A stretch of 55,841 nucleotides of DNA from Chiloscyllium plagiosum. Its lineage: Eukaryota. A program made the position numbers and the translations under genes. A model generated the notes under the pieces. The model ran no database searches and was not told the origin of the DNA. It saw only the letters and a program-made list of their open reading frames with translations. Position 1 is the stretch's first letter. Each line of letters opens with the position of its first letter. Shown one piece after another: positions 1-55,841 of this stretch. The stretch is taken from assembly GCF_004010195.1 (NCBI RefSeq), contig NC_057718.1, forward strand, positions 80,607,241-80,663,081, written 5' to 3'.

Positions 1-128
1 TTCCTGAAGAAGGGCTTATGCCCGAAACGTCGATTCTCCTGTTCCCTGGATGCTGCCTGACCTGCTGCGCTTTTCCAGCAACACATTTCCAGCTCTGATC
101 TCCAGCATCTGCAGACCTCACTTTCTCC
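1..128 (+). mobile_element. Short PLE 3' fragment with minimal hammerhead core (family A)
   Basis: CTGAAGA(4-10) A GGGC-ttat-GCCC GAAA(24-27) C GTC(29-31), then the family body and 3' tail ...ctgcagacctcactttctcc. Cut by the window start. Confidence 0.8.
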
Positions 129-196
129 ACTGAAAAGCACAGCAGGTCAGGCAGCATCCGAGGAGCAGGAGAATCAACATTTCGGGCATAAGCCCT
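129..196 (-). mobile_element. Diverged family A fragment
   Basis: Reverse complement of gggcttatgcccgaaatgttgattctcctgctcctcggatgctgcctgacctgctgtgcttttc. Confidence 0.7.
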
Positions 197-387
197 TGGA
201 ATGCCATGCTTTTAGGAATTATCATGCATGTCTCTGTTTGGCTTGTCTTGGGATGGATGTGTTGTCCTAGTTGAAGTGGACAAACAGACGGAAAACTAGC
301 CACCAGGATATATGAACATCAACTAGCCACAAAACAACGTGACCCATTCTCTCCAGTATCCTTACATATGGATGAGGATGGACATCA

Positions 388-1150: not shown

Positions 1151-1188
1151 CTGAAGATGTTACCTAGTATGGTGACGAAACATCTGAA
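1151..1188 (+). ncRNA. Degenerate hammerhead ribozyme motif in the PLE 3' UTR
   Basis: CTGAAGA t GTTACC-tagtat-GGTGAC GAAA C ATC. Stem II pairs, but the GTC triplet appears changed to ATC, consistent with CpG decay. Confidence 0.65.
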
Positions 1189-5829: not shown

Positions 5830-5949
5830 AAGGAGGGCCTGTGCCCGAAACGTCGAATCTCCTGTTCCCTGGATGCTGCCTGACCTGCTGTGCTGTTCCA
5901 GCAATAAAGTTTCAACTTTGATCTCCAGCATCTGCAGACCTCACTTTCT
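5830..5949 (+). mobile_element. Family A PLE/hammerhead insert, single arm
   Basis: gggc-ctgt-gcccgaaacgtcgaatc...tail. TSD cttcccaaattt at 5818-5829 and 5950-5961. 5'-truncated inside the core. Confidence 0.85.
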
Positions 5950-10791: not shown

Positions 10792-12703
10792 GTGAGTTGG
10801 AGTACAGTCATGGCAGACACTGCAAGACTGAAAGTAACGTTGCCTATTGCCAAACAAGTTTACTTCACAAATTAATCAGATAGAGTCATTTCGCAGTAAA
10901 TAGCAGCAAGAAAAAGGTCTCCTGAGTCAGTTGCCCACCTTTGCTAACAATTAAATTATATCCAACGAAGGAGATGTGAGTCAGCTTTCCTTTGAGACTA
11001 TTCTCTCCCAGCCAATCCATCTCCATTTTTATGAGGACCTGGCAACCCAAGCTATTTAAAACAGTCTATCAAGTAATGGAACTAGCTAAATGCATCAAGC
11101 AAGCAAGCATTTATCTCTCAAGCTTCATCTGTTCCTGCAGAATGTTTCCAAATGAAAGGTTTAATTACTTAAATGGATAAGGCATGCAATCTTGACCTAT
11201 GTGATGTGGAGCAGAATACTAATGAAGGTCAATCCTTATTCTATTGCTGCTTTCAATAGCTGCAGCACATGTTAGCTGTATGCAGTTATGCATCTTCAAA
11301 TGGCCTAATCTTACCCATTTCTCTGGCAAAAAAGGAAGTAACTTCAAATAAAATGCAATATTTAATGAATACTCTGAAACTAGTATACAAAGCATAACGT
11401 AACAGGATAGTCATGTGTGAAAATTATGAAACAGTTTAAAGTGCTATATCTTACTGTGAACCAGACAGATTGAAATACACGTTATTTCCATTGTGGAATT
11501 CATTAGTTTTTATTGCACAATCTTAGATTTAGCTCAATGTTAATTTTGTTTTGGCAATGTTTACAATTGCATAATATTTTAAAATATTTATATGGGCATT
11601 TGTTAACAAAGTGGTATTGTTTCTTCTTGATTCCATAAAGTTCAAAAGCATCTATAAAGTTGGTAGAATGTTTAAAATACAATACTGATGCAATACTTGA
11701 AGTGATTTATTTTGATGACTTTGTTACTGGATACTGTTATAAAGCAGAGGTTGACCCTCCTCTAAGAACTAAAACTGAAACACCTGTAGTCTGTAAAAAG
11801 AGCGCGAAAAATGGTGTAACCTGCTTTTCAACAACTTCTAGTGATTGAATAAAATACCTACCTTAAGAAAAAAAGCCCATAATTAGGAAAAGATGGCTTC
11901 ATTCTTTTTTCTTTTAAACCCTTAACTCCATTATATTACTAGATCCATAGTTCATTAATCTTGAGTTACACATTTTAGACTAATTCTACTTGTATAGAAC
12001 ATTGAACATGACTGTTTCTATCTTATATGAGCATTTTTTTTAAAACTCGTGATAAAGCATCCTCAATAATATTTTCATGACCTGCAACATATACAATCTG
12101 TAAATTAAATCCTTGAAACATGAGACTCAAACAAATTAATCTGGTGTTCTTGTCCTTAGTCTTTCCAGAAATGTCAAAGGATTGTAACAGGTATACACAA
12201 TAGTCTCTGATGCATTGTTTGCAATGTAAACATTAACATGTTGTAAAGCCATTACCAAACTCCATAACTTTTTTCAATCATTGAACATTTTTCCGGCGGA
12301 TATTGAGTTTTTTTGAAAAATAACTGATTCGCCTTTCAATTCCATAATAATCTTCCTGTAGCAACATAGCTCCAACACCTGCATCACCTGCATTGATGGC
12401 AACTTTGAAGGGTTTCAAAACATTTGGCATGGCTAAAACTAATGCAGTAGTTAACTCTGCTTTTAAATTCTTAAATACCTCCTGGCGTTGTTCTGTCCAC
12501 TGAAATTTTGTTTTTTTTTAACAAATCTTGGTACAAATTTTCTGTAGAATTCACTCAATCCTAAAAATCGTAGATGGTCTTTGTCTTCATGTTCCTTGGT
12601 GTCATCTGTTATTTTCGATGTTGTGCCCTAAAATATCACTTCCACCTTCACAAGTTCTGTTTTTGACAATGTTATGACCGATCTTGCCCTCCATAGACTT
12701 TTC

Positions 12704-12916
12704 GAGGAGAAAGTGAGGACTGCAGATGCTGGAGATCAGAGCTGAAAATGTGTTGCTGGAAAAGCGCAGCAGGTCAGGCAGCATCCAAGGAACAGGAGAA
12801 TCGACGTTCCTGGAGCATTGCTTCCTGAAGAAGGGCTTATGCCCGAAACGTTGATTCTCCTGTTCCTTGGATGCTGCCTGACCTGCTGCGCTTTTCCAGC
12901 AACACATTTTCAGCTC
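12704..12916. mobile_element. Family A fold-back insert (tail on minus arm)
   Basis: Inverted arms. TSD ctccatagact at 12689-12699 and 12914-12924. Plus-strand core CTGAAGA at 12825. Confidence 0.88.
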
Positions 12917-14478
12917 CATAGACTCTTACAGAGCTCTGTTAAATGCTCCATGTGATCTTTCCACAAATGGCAAAAGATCAATAAGTCATCTTTGTAGATG
13001 GCAAATTAGTCAATCCTGCAACAACTCTGTTCATAGGCCATTGAAAAGCGGCTGGCACGTTTTTCATTCCAAAGGGCATCACTTTAAATTGATATAGCCC
13101 ATTTGGGGTTACAAAAGCAGAAACATCTTTCACTCTTTGTTACTCTTTGCCAGTAATCACAAAGTAAATCCAACTTTGTGATGTAAGTGACTTGTCCTAC
13201 TTTTTTCACAAAATCCTCCAGTGGGTATATGAGTCAGATTTAGTCATAGTGTTGAACTTCCAATAGTTTACACAGAATTGTTGAGTACCAGCAGGTTTGG
13301 AAGCTAACATGCTAGGCGAACTCCACTCACTTTGATCCATCTCTGTGATGTCCTCCTGGAGCATTGCTTCCTCTTCCTTCTGAACCTGCACTGCTTTGAG
13401 AGGATTATGCCTGTAGGTGTGTTGTTTTATTGGAACAGCATTCCCTACGTCAACCTCCTACTAGGGCAATAGTCTTCCCTATTCTATTTCTTCATGGATC
13501 CTCATCACACTGTAACAAGTCTTTCAAATCAGTTCTCTGTTCCATGGACAGATAACTTACTACCCTACCCCATCCCTTGAGGACTTCCTCATTATTCAAT
13601 TTATTTGGAGGCACATCAAACTCCAAATCATCGGGATTTGATTCCTCACTTTGAGTGGCAGTAACAAATACCTGTTTCTCTGGATCCCTTTCCCTGTCTT
13701 AGTAATATTTTAGCATGTTCAAATGACATACCCAAAATATGTTTTCCTATCTGGCATCTTTACCAGATAATTCACCTGACCTAACTTCTTCTCGATCTGA
13801 CAGGGACCACTAAACCTTGCTTTCGAGGGATTTCCTACCCTGGTAACGGCACCAATACTTTATCCCCATGGGCGAACGTATAAATTTTAGATTTTTTATC
13901 TGCTCCTTGCTTCATTAAGTGCTGTGCACCTTCAAATGTTGTAAAACTAATTCACCTACTCTCTTCAATCTTTCTCTCACCTCCGATACATAATCCAACT
14001 GTGAAATTCTGACTTCGGACCTATCAACTTTTCTTAATTAATTTCAAAGGCCCTCTGAATATCAATTTGAATGAGGTAAACTGAGTCAATTAATTGGAGC
14101 ATCTCTAATTGCAAATCATATATATGGGATACCTTTATCCCATTCATTTGGGTAATCCTGACTTTAAGCCCTCAACATGGTCTTTAGGGTCTGATGCTAC
14201 CTTTCCAATGCTCCCTGGGATTCAGGACTGTATACACTTGATGCAAAGTGTTTGATTCTAAACTGTCCATGACCACCTTAAATAATTTGACAATAAAATT
14301 GGACCCCTGGTCTGACTGAATCCCACTGGGTAATCCATAACTCTTAAAGAAAGCAAGCAACTTTTTGTCAACCATTTTTGCCTTTACATTCTGTAATAGA
14401 ATTGCCTAAGAAAACCCAGTAGACACATCCATTACAGTTAGCAAATACTGGTTCCTACGTTTGGTTTTCGGGAGAGGA

Positions 14479-14688
14479 GATGGAAATGTGTTGCTGGAAA
14501 AGCGCAGCAGGTCAGGCAGCATCTAGGGAACAGGAGAATCGACGTTTCGGGCATTAGCCCTTCTTCAGGAAGGGCTAATGCCCGAAACGTCGATTCTCCT
14601 GTTCCCTACATGGTGCCTGACCTGCTGCGCTTTTCCAGCAACACATTTCCATCTCTGATCTCCAGCATCTGCAGACCTCACTTTCTCC
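14479..14688. mobile_element. Family A fold-back insert (tail on plus arm)
   Basis: Inverted arms meet at cccttcttcaggaagggc. TSD tttcgggagagga at 14466-14478 and 14689-14701. Confidence 0.9.
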
Positions 14689-14841
14689 TTTCGGGAGAGG
14701 ACCTGCATAATCAATTATAACCCATATAAAAGGTTCTTCAAATGTGGGAATTGGCATCAAGGGTGTTGATGTGATCACCTCCTATGGCTTTCCCACCATC
14801 TGACACATATGACAGGTACGGCAAAATTCAATCTTTACGTA

Positions 14842-20111: not shown

Positions 20112-20245
20112 GTTGAAAAAAGGAAGAAGGGCTTATGCCCGAAACGTCGATTCTCCTACTCCTCGGATGCTGCCTGGCCTGCTGTATTTTTCCAGCACCA
20201 CATTTTTCAACTCTGGTCTCCAGCATCTGCAGTCCTCACTTTCTC
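20112..20245 (+). mobile_element. Family A insert with a vestigial inverted arm (gagttgaaaaa)
   Basis: TSD ctaattctgccttga / ctacttctgccttga. The inverted stub is the reverse complement of tttttcaactc, just before the tail. Confidence 0.82.
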
Positions 20246-21423: not shown

Positions 21424-21635
21424 ATGGAAATGTGTTGCTGGAAAAGCGCAGCAGGTCAGGCAGCATCTAGGGAACAGGAGAATCGACGTTTCGGGCATTA
21501 GCCCTTCTTCCTGAAGAAGGGCTAATGCCCGAAACGTCGATTCTCCTGTTCCCTAGATGCTGCCTGACCTGCTGCGCTTTTCCAGCAACACATTTCCATC
21601 TCTGATCTCCAGCATCTGCAGACCTCACTTTCTCC
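21424..21635. mobile_element. Family A fold-back insert with apparently perfect arms
   Basis: TSD ataatatcagcttgttg at 21407-21423 and 21636-21652. Intact plus core at 21511-21538. Confidence 0.92.
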
Positions 21636-21791
21636 ATAATATCAGCTTGTTGTCAGCTAACAGTGAAAGTTGCAGGGAGAACTATGGAATCAACTTTCTC
21701 AGAAAGTACAGCTGTTGTTTGGTAATATATTTCTAAATTTGAAGTATTTAGGATACCAAAAATTCTATTGCTTATGGTGATATTTTAGCAT

Positions 21792-21939
21792 TTTAATTTT
21801 TTTATAAATGTATTCACAAATCTTATTTCCAATAGCAGAGGAACAGAGGGGTAGGCTGAAAAATTTTTTTTCAGTCTACCCCTCTGTTCCTCTGCTATTG
21901 GAAATAAGATTTGTGAACACATTTACAAAAAAAATTAAA
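21792..21939. repeat. Near-perfect palindrome with arms of about 72 bp
   Basis: ttcacaaatcttatttccaatagcagaggaacagaggggtaggctgaaaaa / tttttcagtctacccctctgttcctctgctattggaaataagatttgtgaa. Confidence 0.9.
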
Positions 21940-23253
21940 TTTTTTAAAAATGATTTATGATTTTAAAGGTTACATTTTCTGACCACTCATTCCAAATTTC
22001 AAAAGCAAAACATTATGGCTGCTGGAAACCTAAAATTAAAACCGGAAGTGCTGGGAATATTGAGAAGGTCAAGCAGCAAATGTGCAGACCGAAATAGTGT
22101 TAATGAGTAGAATTTTAGCCTTTCTGAAGTGGTAATAATGATAGCAACTGACATAACTTCATCATTCGAGACTCCAAAGATCAGATTCTCAATGTGAAGA
22201 AAGGTTCTCCAGATTAAGTTCCCTGGCCTTGGGTGATGAATGGAGTGGAAAGAGACTTATTTTGTATATCTACATCTCATTATTAACATAGCTGGCAGTA
22301 TTAACATCACACTTAGAAATTTTCTTTGTATTAAAGAAAATTAATGCACAAAATTTCCACTGATAAAACAGAGCATTTTGTCTTGTCTTGTCAGAGTCCA
22401 TTGCATCTTGCAGAATTACTGTACCAGTCATCTATCGTTTGTTTCCATGGAACCACTTTCCTACATGAGGTGCTTCCATGGTCAATGGCCACATTTATCT
22501 TGAACCCTTCATGCATGCAAGCATTGGTCTTACAACATCAGCTTGTGTCAGCCCAACTCAGCCACCAGTTCATTCCAAGATTTTGGAACTGACTGATAGT
22601 TAGGACTTATAAGCTCGTGCCAGCTAATTCTGCACGAGGAACATCTGGCATTCTGTACAACTATGCAAAGGTTTAGTGCTGATATCGAACCACGCATATT
22701 TGGGTCTTAGTCTGCTTTTTACAAAGTCTATAGTGCTTAATATAGATAGTTTATTTGAAGATTTTAGTAGAAAATGAAGTGTTCCTGTAGAGGCAGGTAA
22801 CTTCAGCATCCTAGCCTGCTTTGTAATGCACAACACCTTTAGAGCTGCTATAGAGTTGGGAATCCTTTGTGATATAACCTACATTTTAGCATGTAAGGTG
22901 TTGAGTGCTGCTTTAGAAGCAGGCAACCTTTGTGGTATCACCTGCTGTCTGCAGAAGGAGGTGGTCTGTTTATAATAGCACTTAAGTGCAAATGTCTTAA
23001 TCAGATAGGATATGGAAATGTTGCTGTGTGACATGGTGTGAGTTCAACATCAGAGCTTCAATATGTACCCACAGCTTAGAGAGCAAACATATAGTATTGA
23101 CCTGAAGAAAATGTATGTAAGTCAAAGTGAATAAGCATTTAGTGGTGTAAGGATGGATTTCAGTCAGTCAGGGGAATACTTCCAAAGTCAGCTATGGGCT
23201 AGTCTGATTTCAGTTTGGCTGTTTGGCCATGGTCAGTCAGATGATTGGTCTTT

Positions 23254-23474
23254 GAGGAGAAAGTGAGGTCTGCAGATGCTCAAGATCAAAGTTGAAACTT
23301 TATTGCTGGAACAGCACAGCAGGTCAGGCAGCATCCAGGGAACAGGAGATTCGACGTTTCGGGCACAGGCCCTTCTTCAGGATTCCTGAAGAAGGGCCTG
23401 TGCCCGAAACGTCGAATCTCCTGTTCCCTGGATGCTGCCTGACCTGCTGTGCTGTTCCAGCAATAAAGTTTCAA
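23254..23474. mobile_element. Family A fold-back insert with complete hammerhead cores on both strands
   Basis: TSD cagatgattggtcttt at 23238-23253 and 23475-23490. Centre ttcttcaggattcctgaagaa. Confidence 0.92.
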
Positions 23475-26664: not shown

Positions 26665-28125
26665 AAGTCAAGGATGTTGCGGGAAGTCAGGGAAGAAATT
26701 ATGGGGCTCTTATCAGAAATATTTGTATCATTTATAACCACGGGTGAGGTGCCACATTCCTGGAGGGTGGCTAATGTTGTGCCTTTATTTAAGAAAGGCT
26801 ATAAGTGGAAGCCTGGAAACACTAAACATCAGTGGTGGGTAAATTATTGGAGGTGATTCTGAAAGATAGCATTTGCATGCATTTGGAGAGGCAAGGACAG
26901 GTTAGGGATAGTCAGCATAGTTTCATGCAAGGGATTTCGTGTCTCACAGACTTCATTTGAGTTTTTTGAGGGTGTAACCAAAAAGATTGATGAGGGTAGA
27001 ATGGTAGACATTGTTTACATGGACTTCAGTAAAGCCTTTGACAAGGTGCTGCATGATAGACTAATTAGTAAAGTTAGATCACATGGAATTCAGGGAGAGT
27101 TTGCCAATTGGATACCAAATTGGCTTTATACTCAAAGACAGAGGATAGTAGGGTTGGTTTTTGGATTCAAGACCTATGACCAATGTGTCCTGGAGGGATC
27201 GGTGCTGGCTCCACTTTTGTTTGTCATTTCAAGAAACGATTTGGATGAGAATATAAGATTAATGGTTTTTAAGTTTGCAGACTTGGTGGATGGACAGTGA
27301 AGAAGGTCATCTCAGGTTACAAAGAGATCTTGATCAACTGGGTCAATGCACTGAGGAGTGGCAGATGGAGTTTAATTTGGATAAATGCAAGGTATTTCAT
27401 TTGGTAAAACCAAAAAGGGCAAGGCTTGTACAATTAATGGTGGGACCCTGGGTAGTGTTGTTGAACAGAGAGACCTAAGGGTTCAGGTTCATATTTCTTT
27501 GCAAGTTGTATCACGGGTAGATGGTGATTAACAAGGCATTTAGCACACTTGCCTTCATTGCTCAGACCATTGAGTATCGGAGTTGGGATGTTATGTTGGG
27601 GTTGTACAGGATGTTGGTAAGGCCACTTTTGGAGCAAAGTGGTCGACCTGCTTTAGGAAGGATATTACTAAACTGGAGAGGGTTCAAAAAGATTTACCAG
27701 GATGTTGCCAAGAATGGAAGGCATGAGTTATTAAAAAATAGTTTGAATAGACGAGGACCTTTTTCACTGGAGGTTGAGGGGTGACCTTGTAGAGGTTTAT
27801 AAAATCACGAGGGGCATAGATAAGGTGAATGGCAAGGGTCTTTTCCCTGGGGTGGGGGAGTTCAAAACTAGGGGGATTATTTTAATGGTGAGAGGAGAAA
27901 AACTTAATAAGGACATGAGGGGCAACTTTTTTATATAGAGTGGTTTGTGTTTGGAATGAAGGAAGTGGTGAATGCAGGTACATTTCCAACATTTAAAAGA
28001 TATTTGGATAAGTACATGCAGGGATATGGGTCAAACACAGGCACATTGGACTAGTTTGTTGGGAACATTGTTGGTGCAGACTAGTTAGGCTGAAGAATCT
28101 GATTCCATGCTGTTAGACTCTAAGA
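26665..28125 (+). mobile_element. CR1 RT to 3' end
   Basis: [30 protein letters not shown]. Confidence 0.85.
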
Positions 28126-39515: not shown

Positions 39516-39575
39516 AAGTTTTTGCAAGAAGTGTTCTTTCTATTCAAGACAGAAACATATTGCAGGAACAAATTA

Positions 39576-39720
39576 CTGAAAATACTGGAATCTGCATTGA
39601 AAATAACAAATGCTGGAGATCACAGTGGGTCAGACAGCATCCATGGATAGTGAGCAAGCTAACTTTGAGTCTAGGTGACTCTTCATCAGAGCTGAAGTAA
39701 AGTGTGGAGGGGACAGCATT
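39576..39720 (-). mobile_element. PLE 3' fragment of a related family with a decayed hammerhead
   Basis: Minus: agct CTGATGA A GAGTC-accta-GACTC AAA GTT agct..., followed by ggatgctgtctgacc...ctccagc. Confidence 0.6.
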
Positions 39721-46601: not shown

Positions 46602-46697
46602 GATTAGAGTGGTGCTGGAAAAGCACAGCAGGTCAGGCAGCATCCAAGGAGCAGGAAAATCAACGTTTCAAACAGGAGCCCTTCATCAGGAATAAGA
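46602..46697 (-). mobile_element. Family A tail-less arm only
   Basis: Minus ttcCTGATGAagggctcctgtttGAAAcgttg. TSD agtgttaattgctgtcaa / agtgataattgctgtcaa. Confidence 0.78.
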
Positions 46698-47345: not shown

Positions 47346-47477
47346 CTTCCTGAAGAAGGGCTTATGCCCAAAACGTCGATTCTCCTGCTCCTTGGATGCT
47401 GCCTGACCTGCTGCACTTTTCCAGCAACACACTTTTCAGCTCTGATCTCCAGCATCTGCAGTCCTCACTTTGTCCTT
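47346..47477 (+). mobile_element. Family A single-arm insert
   Basis: Starts ttcctgaaga, GAAA mutated to AAAA. TSD tgagatag on both sides. Confidence 0.85.
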
Positions 47478-48398
47478 TGAGATAGTTTTGGCAAATAGAA
47501 CTAAGGAGAATCCAAAGGGTTTTACAAATACATTAAGGACAAAAGGGAACTAGGAAGAGAATAGGGCTCCTCAAAGATCAGCAGGGCGGCCTTTGTGTGG
47601 AGCCACAGAAAATGGGGGAGATATTAAATAAGTATTTTGCATCAGTATTTACTGTGGAAAAGGATATAGAAGATATAGACTGTAGGGAAATTGATGGTGA
47701 CACCTTGCAAAATGTACAAATTACAGAGGAGGAAGTGCTGGATGTCTTGAAATAGGTTAAGGTGGATAAATCCCCAGGACCTGATCAGGTGAACCCGAGA
47801 ACTCTGTGGGAAGCTAGAGAAGTGATTGTTAGGCCTCTTGCTGAGATATTTGTATCATCGATAGTCACAGGTGAGGTGCCGGAAGACTGGAGGTTGGCAA
47901 ATGTGGTGCCACTGTTTAAGAAAGGTGGTGAGGACAAGCCACGGAACTATAGACCAGTGAGCCTGACCTCGGTGGTGGGCAAGTTGTTGGAGGGACAGGA
48001 TGTACATGTATTTGGAAAGGCAAGGATTGATGAGGGATAGTCAACATGGCTTTGTGCGTGGGAAATCATGTTTCACAAATGTGACTGAGTTTTTTGAAGA
48101 AATAAAAAAGAGGACTGATGAGAGCAGAGCGGTGGACATGATCTATATGGACTTCAGTAAGGCGTTCGTCAAGGTTCCCCATGGGAGACAGGTTAGCAAG
48201 GTTAGATCTCATGGAATACCAGGAGAACTAGCTATTTGGATACAGAACTGGCTCAAAAGTAGAAGACAGAGGGTGGTGGTGGAGGGTTGCTTTTCAGACT
48301 GGAGGCCTGTGATCAGTGGAGTGCTACAAGGATCAGTGCTGGGACCACTACTTTTCGCCATTTATATAAATGATTTGGATGTGAGCATAAGAGATATA

Positions 48399-48640
48399 CA
48401 GAGGAACCTCGATTATCCGAATGAGATGGCCAGGCACTGTTTTGTTTGGATAACTGATTTTTTGGTTAATTGATTTCCTCTGGGGCTCGGAGTTTTCTGT
48501 GAAGTCTGCTCCCTGCTCAGGAGACTAGGCAGCAGCAGCACACTGCGAGCTAGCCCCACTCTCTGCCTGCCCCCAAAATCCTGTCCTACCCCATCCACTC
48601 CCCCCCCCAAACTCCACCCGCACCCAACACCATCCACCCG
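48399..48640. mobile_element. Tigger-like end, same family as 14842-16153
   Basis: TA followed by cagaggaacctcgattatccgaa. The second TIR is missing. Confidence 0.7.
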
Positions 48641-52099: not shown

Positions 52100-52990
52100 T
52101 TGTGTCTCTTTGATTGTAAATATTGGAAAATTTTCAAAATCAGCAAAAGGTTACTAAAAACATCATAAAAATGAGAATTTAGTGTATGGGAGAAAAATAG
52201 TGAGAAATTTTAAAAAAGGACTGTAAAAAATTGTCCAAGTATAAAAAAAAGAAAAAAGAAATAGCAAAAGTCAGCTTTGGTCCCTTTGAAGGTGAGGCTG
52301 AGGAATTGTCAAGGAAACAAAGAAATGCCAAAAACTTTGAACTAGTATTTTGTGTCTCATTTCATAGTAAAGACACAAAAAGCAGTTTAAGAACAATGGA
52401 AAAGCAGGGGTAAAATTGAAGGGGTAATTTGAAATTAGCATGATCATTCAAGAAATGGCACTAGAGAAAGTATTGGGACACGTCCCTGCACCTGATGGTC
52501 AACATGTAGCATCTAAAATGCACTTTGAGTTGTAATTGTCCAAAATTAACTATATTCTTGAAATTGGAAATATTGACGAATCCATCAGAGAAAAGCTTTA
52601 TATTTAATTAAGAATATTAAACGTTGACTGCTTATCTTGATCTTAATAAGCCTCTGTAAACAGGACAGAACAGAAACCAATTTCAGGAAAACTTTTGAAA
52701 ACTGTAAATGTGATACTGTTATTTAAAACAAGTACATCTCTATGACTCTTAGTGATATAGAACCTTGGAAACTATAGGACAGACAGTCTAACATCTGTCG
52801 TGAGGAAATGTTATAATCTATTATTATTAAGAAGGTAGTAGTAAGAGATTTAGAAAATCATAATACAATCAAGCTGCCTCATCATGGTTGTGTGAAAGGA
52901 AAATCATGTACGACAAATCATTTAAGTGCTCTTAACAGGGGGATAAAGGGGAATCAATAGATGTAGTGTCTTTGCAAATATCTTTCCAAA
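52100..52990 (+). mobile_element. Degenerate CR1 remnant
   Basis: ggaaactataggacagacagtctaacatctgtcgtg (GNYR..SLTSVV) and catggttgtgtgaaaggaaaatcatgt (HGCVKGKSC). Confidence 0.65.
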
Positions 52991-53309
52991 TTCAATGATC
53001 CTGGTAGAACTTGAAGTGAGTATCAGTGAGCAGGTTATTGCAAAGGCAAGTGCCATTTGATGGCATTGTTATGAACCCTTTCCTGGCAAAAATTGATGCT
53101 GTGATTGTGATAGCTATGCATGTTGTGGAAGACATCATGGATTGCTATAACATTTTGGAGACCCGATATTTTTTCCAGAAAAATGGTTTGGCTGTATCAA
53201 ACACAATGGTGTGAGAGTCAAGATAAAAATTGCTGGAAATATTAGAGTAAATCCAAAGTTCCCAGCTTGTCATCTGGGGGTTGTGGGTGAGGGATGAAAA
53301 AGTTAACTG

Positions 53310-53422
53310 GATCAGTGGTGCTGGAAGAGCACAGCAATTCAGGCAGCATTCGACGAGCAGCAAAATCGACGTTTTGGGCAAAAGCCCTTCATCAGGATCT
53401 GCAGTCATTGTTTTTTATCACC
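53310..53422. mobile_element. Family A-related insert: inverted tail-less arm plus a tail stub
   Basis: Minus CTGATGAagggc-tttt-gccc. Plus stub atctgcagtcattgtttt. TSD atgaaaaagttaactg at 53294-53309 and 53423-53438. Confidence 0.8.
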
Positions 53423-55345
53423 ATGAAAAAGTTAACTGTCTTACTTCAGCAAGAATATTTGTGATTGAATATTATTGCTTTGATTTTTCTTTCACCAGTT
53501 TTCTTCTTCCTACAATCCTGAAGGTGTCCATTTCTTGCTTGAGTAAAATTCCACAGTATCAGGCAAACATCTAGGCCTTCACTGAGGTGATCACTATTTT
53601 TCCACATATCTTGACAGCCAATTCTGCCAGTCAAAATGACCACAGGGTGTTAGCTAAGTCCCAGTCACATCTTCACTTCGAGCCGCACAATTCAAGACGT
53701 CATTCGGATGATATGTTAAATCAGATCTCATTGGCACTCATGCCACAAGTGTAGCATTGTAATTTCAGGTATAGAGAGTACGGTTTAATACCAGCAGGCA
53801 CCGAAGTTTTTTTTTAAAACATGCAGATTTCTTCTCATCTCAACTTCACATCGGAAAACATAAAGACAGTTTTAGGGATAAAGATCTTTTAACAAGTTTT
53901 CCTGAAATTGGTTTCTGTTCTGCCCTGTTTACAGAGGCTTATTAAGATCAAGATAAGCAGTTAACGTTTAATATTCTTAATTAAATAAAGTCCTTTTCTC
54001 TGCTGCATTCGTCGATATTTACAATTCTAACAAATATATCTTAGTGTCTGCATTATTTACTTATTCTTTTCTGACGTACATTTGGTAAGCATCCATACTT
54101 AAATCCGCCAGTCATTTATCAGAAATATTTTCCATTTAAATTTGCTGAATGACCTCCAAAAGCTGCACGAATTTATTTGTGAATTAATAGTCTGTCTATC
54201 CACAGTAATTTATGTGAGAAATCAGCTCAAGCAGCTTCATTCATTCGGTTGCTTCCGGCTCGGCCACAGAAAAATATTCACCTTCCTTCCATTTGTTCTT
54301 GAATCCAAAGCATACAGCATCTCATCAAGTGTGAAACACAGCTAATTTATAACCACCAAAAAAATGTTAGATTGAAACTAAAACTCGGCTGCTGATAAAG
54401 TAAGAAATTTGTTTGGCACTCAAAGTACAATGAGCCAACGAGAGAAAACGCGTAACCTTTTAAAGCTCAGAAGCTTGCCGAATTGAAGCTTTGAAAGAAA
54501 TACAATGAAAATCAAACTCCTTCTTAAAGTTAAACAAACACCTTCTGTCAACTGGATGACAGAGCGAAAAAAAATTCCTTATCGTTTCTGTTTCACTAGA
54601 AATGGGATTCTCCTGTTACAAAAATGTGCTAGTCAGACATCTCCAAGCTTGTTAAAGTTTCATCTTCAACTGAAAAGAGAAACCTTGTGACCATGTTGCA
54701 GTACTGTCAAAACTGTTCAAACTGGTGCCATAAACTATCCGTTGGTGAATTTTCCAAGTCCAGCTCCAAGGTTGAGCTGCCATTGCAATCCCATTAGGAA
54801 ATAATTAATGTTTTTTAAATGTTTCTGGTATTATTTGTCACTTTGAATGTCTTTAAATAGCATTAACTAAGGAGGAAAACATCATTATTTGGGAGGATGA
54901 CTATAAAATCGATACGTGTTTTGATGCTTTCATTTATTTTGGAGCAATACAGCTGCTCCACTGCTTTGAAACGGAGAGCAGTAGCTGTAAAAAAAACACG
55001 CAGCACGTCATGCTTCCTCACTAGCTGTGTTTTTTGTGACAGGGAGGATCACAAGCTTTGAGGGAAGGTGAGATGTGTCACGGACGTGGAGTTGAGTGAG
55101 ATGGAATAAGACAGATGCATTTATATTTCTTTCTGTTTTCAGATTTGGCTAATCTCAGGACAAAAAAAAGTCTCGCCTTCTAGAGATTTTTAACATTTTT
55201 CTGCGTTTGTGAATTGGCGATTAAAAACTAACAGTTCGCATCCCTCTGCATAATTGATTTCCTCAAACCAAGAAAATACCAACAAACTCTCTTTGTAACA
55301 TACTGTAATGGCACCAAATCCTCCAATGGTAACGTATTAATGATT

Positions 55346-55841
55346 GCTGGAAATGTGTTGCTGGAAAAGCGCAGCAGGTCAGGCAGCATCCAGGGAACAG
55401 GAGAATCGACGTTGCGGGCATAAGCCCTTCTTCAGGAATGAGGAAAGTTTGTCCAGCAGGCTAAGATAAAAGGTAGGGAGGAGGGACTTGGGGGAGGGGC
55501 GTCGGAAATGTGATAGGTGGAAAGAGGTCAAGGTGAGGGTGATAGGCCAGACTGGGGTGGGGGCGGAGAGGTCGGGAAGAAGATTGCAGGTTAGGAAGGC
55601 GGTGCTGAGTTCGATGGATTTGACTGAGACAAGGTGGGGGGAGGGGAAATACCTTGTCTCAGTCAAATCCATCGAACTCAGCACCGCCTTCCTAACCTGC
55701 AATCTTCTTCCCCACCTCTCCGCCCCCACCCCAGTCTGACCTATCACCCTCACCGTGACCTCTTTCCACCTACCACATTTCCGACGCCCCTCCCCCAAGT
55801 CCCTCCTCCCTACCTTTTATCTTACCCTGCTGGACAAACTT
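55346..55841. mobile_element. Long family A fold-back including upstream PLE 3' UTR, cut by the window end
   Basis: Left arm to 55635, 15-nt G-rich spacer, right arm from 55651. The minus core has GAAA changed to GCAA. Confidence 0.88.

What the first reader, a model, noticed from the sequence alone, without database searches (positions are those of the whole stretch)
14545..14595. 5' truncation and arm junctions cluster at the ribozyme's CUGAAGA, upstream of the cleavage site
Seen: arm 5' ends at 5830, 12822, about 14568, 20122, about 21510, about 23383, about 46692, 47346 and about 53398 all fall within a few nt of ttcCTGA(A/T)GA. That is about 25-30 nt upstream of the predicted GUC cut. 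Only the 55346 copy clearly extends further. Inference: either a discrete ~130-nt RNA is mobilised as a SINE or retrozyme-like unit, or the RT stalls or is released at the folded ribozyme.
Basis: partly seen in the sequence, partly recalled or inferred. Interest (0 to 1): 0.7.

Follow-up and report, generated by a model that had tools for sequence, protein, structure and literature searches.

The report
Penelope stubs start at hammerhead's edge
Most copies of this short hammerhead-bearing repeat, likely the end piece of a Penelope-type jumping gene, begin within a few bases of the ribozyme's front edge rather than at its predicted cut site, which likely marks where the copied RNA starts.

Summary
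The window has 12 insertions of a 90-130-base repeat with a minimal hammerhead motif. In 10 of 11 scorable insertions the outermost 5' end lies within -5..+11 of TTCC-CTGAAGA. The predicted cut is at +31, and only the 55643 palindrome extends about 200 bases further. Public reads show a 4.1-fold depth step at the core against about 1.2-fold per equal span upstream (contigs 2.8 and 2.9; a second organism was too noisy), so smooth decay is rejected. Target duplications of 11-18 bp, two fixed 3' ends about 35 bases apart and head-to-head arms match Penelope-like pLTR-plus-tail insertions; no ORF was found to prove membership. A cut-to-cut retrozyme circle is not supported, and no single SINE master is needed, because junctions differ between near-identical copies. 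Best reading (0.45): the reverse transcriptase starts internally, as shown for anole Poseidon, and runs off an RNA 5' end, likely a transcription start at an initiator-like motif. A stall near stem II (0.2) and nuclease trimming (0.12) remain open. The element type is known; I did not find the 5' pile-up in print.

The parts
14466..14478 (.). Left target-site duplication (13 bp) of the focal insertion
   Evidence: Identical to 14689-14701
14479..14571 (-). Short arm, element positions 1-93, no tail; intact hammerhead core at 14568-14562, predicted cut between 14541 and 14540
14569..14688 (+). Long arm, positions 9-128, with the 35-nt tail (14654-14688); lacks the first five core bases; shares a 3-nt microhomology (14569-14571) with the short arm
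14689..14701 (.). Right target-site duplication
1..128 (+). Long arm, positions 1-128, cut by the window edge; 5' end not scorable
130..197 (-). Arm, positions 10-77 (start may be about -1 if five core bases are deleted), tail-to-tail with the copy at 1-128; no convincing target duplication
5830..5949 (+). Solo long arm, positions 7-126, 12-bp target duplication
12703..12913 (.). Head-to-head pair: long arm (-) from +26, short arm (+) from +1 at 12822; 9 bases of the filler between them match the right flank in reverse; 14-bp target duplication
20112..20245 (+). Long arm, positions 6-127, preceded by a 9-10-nt inverted mini-arm (positions 86-94); 15-bp target duplication with one mismatch
21424..21635 (.). 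Head-to-head pair: long arm (+) 1-128 from 21508, short arm (-) 6-92; 17-bp target duplication
23254..23474 (.). Head-to-head pair: long arm (-) from +2, short arm (+) from 0/+1 at 23383; 16-bp target duplication
46602..46697 (-). Solo short arm, about -4 to 91; target duplication of up to 18 bp with one mismatch
47349..47477 (+). Solo long arm, from +3 (+1 counting microhomology) to about 130, inserted in a LINE-type RT remnant; 11-bp target duplication
53310..53422 (-). Short arm, positions 2-89, joined to a 25-nt piece of which 10 nt match the tail in inverted orientation (likely a mini long arm); 16-bp target duplication
55346..55650 (-). Extended short arm, positions -211 to 93: pyrimidine-rich upstream region, initiator-like TCATTCC with its A at 55439 (position 0), hammerhead core 55435-55429 with one core substitution at 55414
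55651..55841 (+). Inverted partner arm starting at -196, 97% identical to the left arm, cut by the window end at about -8

Best explanation
These repeats are likely end pieces of a Penelope-like retrotransposon, and their 5' ends pile up at the front edge of the hammerhead motif, likely because the reverse transcriptase starts inside the RNA about 93 or 128 bases downstream and runs off the RNA's 5' end, which is predicted to be a transcription start at position 0. Shown here: the pile-up, two fixed 3' ends, target duplications and head-to-head joins. Shown by others for the anole relative in vitro: internal initiation at two sites that define the tail, extension of both target strands, products that track the template's 5' end, and no need for ribozyme cleavage. 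Inferred: (1) the priming site in the 5'-proximal repeat of a transcript gives a short run-off cDNA, like a retroviral strong-stop product, that is integrated on its own; (2) priming on both nicked strands gives two such cDNAs that are joined by microhomology or short fillers into the head-to-head form, one arm usually complete and the other trimmed; (3) priming at a downstream repeat of a longer transcript gives the minority of long copies that decay smoothly; (4) the RNA end is a Pol II start at the initiator-like TCATTCC. Step 4 is the weakest.
For: 10 of 11 scorable insertions have their outermost end in -5..+11, and 6 or 7 at -4..+3. The depth step and fit put 70-75% of copies ending at +4 to +8, with about tenfold lower residual than a smooth exponential (SS 0.30-0.36 against 3.3-4.4). 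4 of the 6 opposite-strand joints shown have one side at 55437-55441 (+2 to -2), and the joint 55428/55439 occurs in 12 reads from 11 starts. The 3' ends fall at 89-93 (7 arms) and 126-131 (8 arms); the anole tail, nt 85-119 counted from the last core base, maps to 94-128 (PMC11167929, Fig. S2 legend). In that paper 5' truncation of the template shortened the product, and ribozyme mutants did not change the product size. The template ahead is predicted to be unstructured at -6..+8 (0-0.4 kcal/mol). YYANWYY and BBCABW motifs (recalled consensus forms) place their A at position 0. The Drosophila Penelope start site and internal promoter lie in the pLTR (PMC2377424). In 3 of 7 two-armed insertions each arm holds sequence the other lacks, so neither arm is a plain fold-back copy.
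Against: No transcription start was observed. The initiator motif is weak: 4 matches in 305 bases, about a 5-7% chance of one within two bases of the boundary. In Drosophila the start (371) lies about 120 nt upstream of the intron end (491), which maps to hammerhead helix I, so the start is not at the ribozyme there. The depth fit cannot separate centres from 0 to +12 (SS 0.29-0.56), and the largest predicted barrier at +14..+20 is close. The 55643 palindrome has both arms ending near -200, where no initiator match lies at the end, so equal-length arms can arise elsewhere. Run X13 does not show a dominant step. No PLE ORF was linked to the repeat. The depth profile pools subfamilies; an unphased allele estimate leaves about a 2.8-fold step for reference-like reads.
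Confidence: 0.45

Rival explanations
1. The reverse transcriptase stalls or is released at the ribozyme, either at stem II or an alternative helix with the upstream pyrimidine tract, or at a protein-bound core, and the truncated cDNA is integrated.
For: The highest predicted opening energy on the whole template is 7.5 kcal/mol at +16. A fit centred at +12 is nearly as good as at +8 (0.35 against 0.29). Four ends lie at +6..+10. The Fig. S2C legend of PMC11167929 says the core must unfold for reverse transcription to pass.
Against: Stops are expected on the 3' side of a structure (established RT-stop behaviour), but 6 or 7 of 11 ends lie at -4..+3 and the recurrent joints at +2..-2, past the barrier, in a region predicted to be open. 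Fits at +24 and +32 are poor (1.21, 1.83). The anole enzyme's products tracked the template's 5' end upstream of its hammerhead in vitro.
Confidence: 0.2
2. The template does end at about position 0, but that end is made by 5'-to-3' nuclease trimming up to a folded or protein-protected ribozyme, not by transcription initiation.
For: It explains the same pile-up at the 5' edge of helix I with a few bases of scatter. The anole ribozyme folds only with its protein.
Against: No direct evidence. Helix I is predicted to be weak in most copies (2 pairs, a U-U mismatch, 1 pair).
Confidence: 0.12
3. A discrete 130-nt RNA from one or a few short master copies is mobilised in trans as a SINE-like unit, or as a retrozyme circle.
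For: Short copies are the majority and carry their own target duplications. Two joints (55439 to 55348 and 55439 to 55351) read best as head-to-tail short dimers. Animal retrozymes are proposed to derive from pLTRs (bioRxiv 10.64898/2026.07.22.740005).
Against: No tRNA head or Pol III boxes. No tandem array in the window. No copy is bounded by the cut site. The same boundary recurs across copies 78-100% alike. Near-identical copies (14565 and 21510; 5830 and 23383) have different junctions, so the palindromes are not copied as units. The short arm of the long copy is 97% identical to short copies.
Confidence: 0.1
4. The boundary is a DNA-level hot spot. Either cDNAs anneal at the near-palindrome TTCnnGAA in the core, a cDNA folds back there, or the endonuclease nicks the ATT at positions 0-2.
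For: The junctions at 14569-71 and 21508-10 use the TTC/GAA microhomology. The anole endonuclease prefers ATT. Self-priming was proposed for inverted junctions (PMC3846280).
Against: Solo copies joined to target DNA (5830, 46692, 47346) and copies joined to mini-arms (20122, 53398) end at the same place. 3 of 7 pairs cannot be plain fold-backs (2 can, 2 are undecided). Other palindromic words and ATT sites in the element show no comparable step.
Confidence: 0.08
5. The step is an artefact of subfamilies that share the core but diverge upstream, or of assembly breaks at repeats.
For: About half of the core reads carry non-reference alleles, and the window begins exactly at position 1 of a copy.
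Against: Target duplications bracket the short copies directly in 9 of the 10 insertions tested. A second subfamily (26-32% of reads) still aligns upstream of the step.
Confidence: 0.03

Closest known systems
Penelope/Poseidon PLE insertions with pLTR, optional tail and inverted 5' copy (PMC3846280, PMC8557442, PMC11167929)
   Same: Two 3' ends about 35 nt apart, head-to-head inverted arm without the tail, variable target duplications, a hammerhead with the GAAACGUC stem III also seen in the anole template, and the same distance from core to tail.
   Different: Those texts describe 5' truncation as frequent and variable; here about three quarters of copies stop at one place. No ORF is present in the window.
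Minimal type I hammerheads of metazoan PLEs (Cervera and de la Pena 2014, PMC4209133)
   Same: CUGAnGA core, extra base before stem II, G10.1-C11.1 pair, palindromic minimal stem III, weak helix I; mostly solo, with some pairs on opposite strands.
   Different: Stem II is 4 bp here rather than 7-8 bp as in Schistosoma. The parts I read do not map where the solo copies begin.
Non-LTR retrozymes (PMC7229834; bioRxiv 10.64898/2026.07.22.740005)
   Same: Short, non-coding, type I hammerhead, probably moved by PLE enzymes.
   Different: Retrozymes are head-to-tail tandem repeats giving cut-to-cut linear and circular RNAs. These copies are dispersed, solo or head-to-head, and are not bounded by the cut.
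Retroviral minus-strand strong-stop cDNA and L1 twin priming (recalled; no call)
   Same: Run-off at the RNA 5' end after internal priming; two cDNAs primed from opposite target strands and joined by microhomology.
   Different: No tRNA primer, and the run-off product would be integrated. The arms here duplicate the same sequence, whereas twin-primed L1 segments do not overlap.

Membership tests
Penelope-like element (EN+) | ORF with telomerase-like RT and GIY-YIG endonuclease linked to the repeat | tested here: inconclusive
   No ORF in reach: no Pfam hit on the 145-aa frame, no GIY-YIG-like motif in six frames, no protein hits. The longest copy has only 211 bases upstream of the core.
Penelope-like element (EN+) | Optional 30-40-nt tail at the 3' end | tested here: met
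   Ends at 89-93 (7 arms) and 126-131 (8 arms)
Penelope-like element (EN+) | Inverted 5'-adjacent copy (head-to-head) | tested here: met
   7 of 11 scorable insertions, two of them with mini-arms
Penelope-like element (EN+) | Hammerhead motif in the terminal repeat | tested here: met
   Core and stems by pattern; Rfam found no hammerhead family at E up to 1
Penelope-like element (EN+) | Partial tandem of full-length copies forming pLTRs | not testable with these tools
   No genome held
Minimal type I hammerhead | CUGAnGA, extra base, stem II, GAAA, palindromic stem III, NUH | tested here: met
   Complete in the arms at 4, 21511, 23386, 23380 and 14568; substitutions in others
Minimal type I hammerhead | Self-cleavage (as a dimer or with protein) | not testable with these tools
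   Bench assay needed
Non-LTR retrozyme | Head-to-tail tandem units, each with a hammerhead | tested here: not met
   None among the 7 TRF rows; two possible dimer joints in one run's contigs
Non-LTR retrozyme | Cut-to-cut linear or circular RNA monomer | not testable with these tools
   No small-RNA or circRNA run laid; genomic copies are not bounded by the cut
Classical SINE | Pol III RNA-derived head with A and B boxes | tested here: not met
   No tRNA; no box pattern on the sense strand (patterns recalled)
MITE | Palindrome moved as a unit with fixed ends and fixed-length duplication | tested here: not met
   Asymmetric arms, 11-18-bp duplications, different junctions in near-identical copies

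The most novel reading that the evidence does not exclude
The short copies are integrated strong-stop-like cDNAs made from the 5' end of Penelope transcripts. Because the promoter lies downstream of the start and priming is internal, every 128-base stub is a self-sufficient Pol II-driven non-autonomous master that needs no defined RNA 3' end. The same run-off-and-jump step would also regenerate the terminal repeats of full elements.
Probability: 0.2. Interest if true: 0.7.

Novelty: new variant of a known kind. Interest (0 to 1): 0.42.

Why it matters
How Penelope-like elements finish an insertion and rebuild their terminal repeats is open: PMC2377424 says no obvious mechanism for regeneration is known, and PMC11167929 leaves the later steps unvalidated. 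A sharp 5' boundary about 30 bases before the predicted cut suggests that the integrated template is uncleaved RNA, in agreement with the in vitro result. It also turns the question into a single measurement: is there a capped RNA end at position 0? The elements themselves are of a described kind, and earlier notes of this scan report the same pattern in this genome, so the added value is the base-level junction anatomy and the narrowing of mechanisms.

Tried and rejected
No whole genome was held, so no base-resolved genome-wide histogram could be made; one search shows only the best-supported joints and loose ends (1013 loose ends, and 14 plus 63 joints, not shown). Rfam gave 16 matches, all microRNA-precursor families below their gathering scores, lying on inverted repeats; rejected. 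The core pattern had 0 matches in metagenome and viral contigs. No RNA holder listed. Run X21 showed no place where many molecules begin or end, but a poly(A) single-cell library read at about 2% cannot show a start site or a short unadenylated RNA; its strand ratio (about 1.7 in the core, about 1.0 at 55496-55572) was not interpretable. Protein searches were blank: a 40-aa frame against 1.84 billion representatives and an 89-aa frame against longer proteins (53 candidates, none passing). A 19-codon frame at the far end of the long arm may be an ORF C-terminus (recalled resemblance) but is too short to search, so the link to an ORF stays open. A splice acceptor-like site at -23 does not explain the step (fit at -22, SS 3.51). 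I first read the 24 bases upstream of the 53398 core as element sequence and helix I; one search showed they are more likely an inverted tail piece, so one search counts 9 of 11 rather than 10 of 11. The bacterial promoter scan does not apply to this host. Supplementary Fig. S2 of PMC11167929 is an image; it shows genomic coverage around the anole hammerhead and may already display a similar step.

Full report
WHAT IS IN THE WINDOW. A self-comparison and profile search found 16 strong arms of one short repeat (E 4e-12 or better), a 17th arm at 55651-55841, and two weak hits (39653, E 0.03; 22082, E 2.1) that I left out of all counts. The arms group into 12 insertions. I number positions along the natural copy 21508-21635, with position 1 the first T of TTCC-CTGAAGA. 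The hammerhead core CUGAnGA is 4-10, stem II is 12-23, GAAA is 24-27 and the predicted cut follows 31. The host is a vertebrate-like genome with LINE-type RT remnants. The label 'shark' is my recollection and appears in earlier scan notes; no call of mine established it.

CHECK OF THE OBSERVATION. A target-duplication search on 10 insertions gave 11-18-bp duplications in 9, which fix the ends independently of any alignment. The outermost 5' ends are +10 or about -1 (130-197), +7, +1, +1, +6, +1, 0/+1, about -4, +1/+3, +2 and -211; the copy at 1-128 is cut by the window edge. So 10 of 11 lie in -5..+11. With the earlier count of 9 of 11, the most favourable smooth exponential gave P = 6e-8; the interval was chosen after seeing the data. 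The focal site is a head-to-head pair: a short arm 14479-14571 (-, positions 1-93) and a long arm 14569-14688 (+, 9-128), sharing three bases, inside a 13-bp duplication. Partner arms are not all at the core: one starts at +26 and two are mini-arms of about 10 and 25 bases.

BEYOND THE WINDOW. I laid 4 of 24 listed runs on the long arm 55331-55650 at 85% likeness. In raw reads of X21 (2339 laid) depth is 1066 at 55419-29, 679 at 55430-40 and 259 at 55441-51, then decays by about 1.2-fold per 22 bases. The 4.12-fold drop is the largest of 20 two-bin drops. Contig depth drops 2.77-fold in X4 and 2.94-fold in X7, also their largest. X13, another organism, drops 2.46-fold but has larger drops elsewhere, so I do not count it. 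X4 may be the source of the assembly, and contig depth is not copy number. A simple read model with edge effects fits about ten times better with a point mass (70-75% of copies, centre +4 to +9) than with smooth decay alone. A scan of centres gave SS 1.83 at +32, 1.21 at +24, 0.74 at +18, 0.35 at +12, 0.29 at +8, 0.37 at +4, 0.56 at 0 and 3.51 at -22. Of 15 joints shown, 8 have one side at 55437-55444, including 4 of the 6 opposite-strand joints (at 55437-55441); the joint 55428/55439 has 12 reads from 11 starts. Subfamily pooling inflates the step somewhat. About 46-50% of core reads and about 70% of upstream reads carry reference alleles, which by hand calculation leaves roughly 2.8-fold (unphased).

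WHAT IT IS. The 3' ends are bimodal, 89-93 in 7 arms and 126-131 in 8 arms. This is the optional 30-40-base tail of Penelope-like elements, which also carry inverted 5' copies (PMC8557442, passages; PMC3846280, passages; PMC8969392, passages). The hammerhead matches the minimal type described for these elements (PMC4209133, parts 1-2 of 4). In anole Poseidon (PMC11167929, parts 1-3 of 4) the purified protein nicks and extends both target strands, starts reverse transcription inside the RNA at two sites that bound the tail, gives products that shorten with 5' truncation of the template, and does not need ribozyme cleavage. Its tail, nt 85-119 counted from the last core base, corresponds to 94-128 here; counted from the cut, the offsets differ by 7 bases because its stem II is longer. 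No ORF could be tied to the repeat, so it works like a Poseidon-type end module, and membership rests on architecture.

HOW THE BOUNDARY MOST LIKELY ARISES. Cleavage is ruled out as the source, since no arm starts at +32. A reverse transcriptase moving towards the RNA's 5' end meets helix I, stem III and stem II before it reaches the core. The predicted opening energy ahead of the enzyme peaks at 7.5 kcal/mol at +16 and is 0-0.4 at -6..+8 (one subfamily, no protein or tertiary contacts). Most exact ends and the recurrent joints lie in that open stretch. This fits run-off at a template end, with the ends at +6..+11 explained as trimming during joining. In each two-armed insertion one arm reaches the full extent and the other is equal or shorter. 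In 3 of 7 pairs (12822, 14565, 53398) each arm has sequence the other lacks, which a plain fold-back cannot give; 2 pairs are compatible with fold-back and 2 are undecided. Arms of a pair are 97-100% identical and share subfamily marks, and one filler copies 9 bases of the flank, as in microhomology-mediated repair. An initiator-like motif has its A at position 0, the most recurrent joint position, but there are 4 such motifs in 305 bases, so this is a hint only. In Drosophila Penelope the start site and an internal promoter lie in the pLTR, but about 120 bases upstream of the intron end that abuts the hammerhead (PMC2377424, parts 2-3 of 4; PMC4209133). That supports a pLTR start in general, not this position. 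The 55643 palindrome, with arms ending at -211 and -196, shows that arms can end together elsewhere, as expected if both were copied from an RNA that ended there. I give run-off at a transcription start 0.45, a stall 0.2, trimming to a protected edge 0.12, a separate short master 0.1, a DNA-level hot spot 0.08 and artefact 0.03.

COMPARISON WITH RETROZYMES AND SINES. Animal retrozymes are head-to-tail repeats that give linear and circular monomers (PMC7229834, passages; bioRxiv 10.64898/2026.07.22.740005, parts 1 and 3 and passages; review PMC6765202, passages). The window has no such array, although two joints in X7 contigs read best as short head-to-tail dimers that restart at position 0. 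There is no tRNA head or Pol III box. Near-identical copies have different junctions, so palindromes are rebuilt at each insertion.

NOVELTY. The element type, tail, inverted arms and solo minimal hammerheads are described. Eight library searches turned up no paper that I read describing a pile-up of 5' ends at the front edge of the hammerhead. The library lacks most subscription journals and Repbase entries, and the anole supplementary figure that might show it is an image I could not read. Earlier AI notes on this genome report the same pattern; they are not independent evidence. Verdict: a real, reproducible feature; a new variant of a known kind; mechanism likely but untested; interest 0.42.

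Noticed in passing
window 1151-1185 (+), with an 18-bp tandem repeat at 1029-1083: A second, unrelated hammerhead-like motif with a 6-bp stem II, likely from another Penelope-type family.
   Followed up: no
window 39570-39700 (-): A diverged third hammerhead-like stub, weakly similar to the main family (E 0.03), with a CTGATGA core; its 5' extent could not be fixed.
   Followed up: partly
window 1-197: The window starts exactly at position 1 of a copy, and this copy abuts another tail-to-tail at 128-130, possibly an insertion into an older copy.
   Followed up: partly
window 12808-12821: Filler at a head-to-head junction matches 9 bases of the right flank (about 12942-12950) in reverse, like a templated repair insertion.
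   Followed up: partly
joints on window 55432-55622: Four contig joints connect the core edge (55432-55444) to upstream sequence 109-183 bases away; the two ends shown do not read as sense-strand splice sites. Unexplained.
   Followed up: no
window 55462-55478: A polypyrimidine tract ending in TTAG on the element's sense strand, 23 bases upstream of the core, resembles a splice acceptor; no depth step there.
   Followed up: partly
window 47967-48470 and 26863-27297: LINE-type reverse transcriptase remnants (Pfam RVT_1); the 47349 copy sits inside one of them.
   Followed up: no
window 21790-21940 and 52562-54026: Other inverted repeats unrelated to this family: a 151-base palindrome (91%), and a 140-base pair at 52562-52701 and 53887-54026.
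   Followed up: no
window 14479-14688 and 21424-21635: Two insertions 7 kb apart with arms 98-100% identical but different junctions and target duplications, suggesting recent activity.
   Followed up: partly
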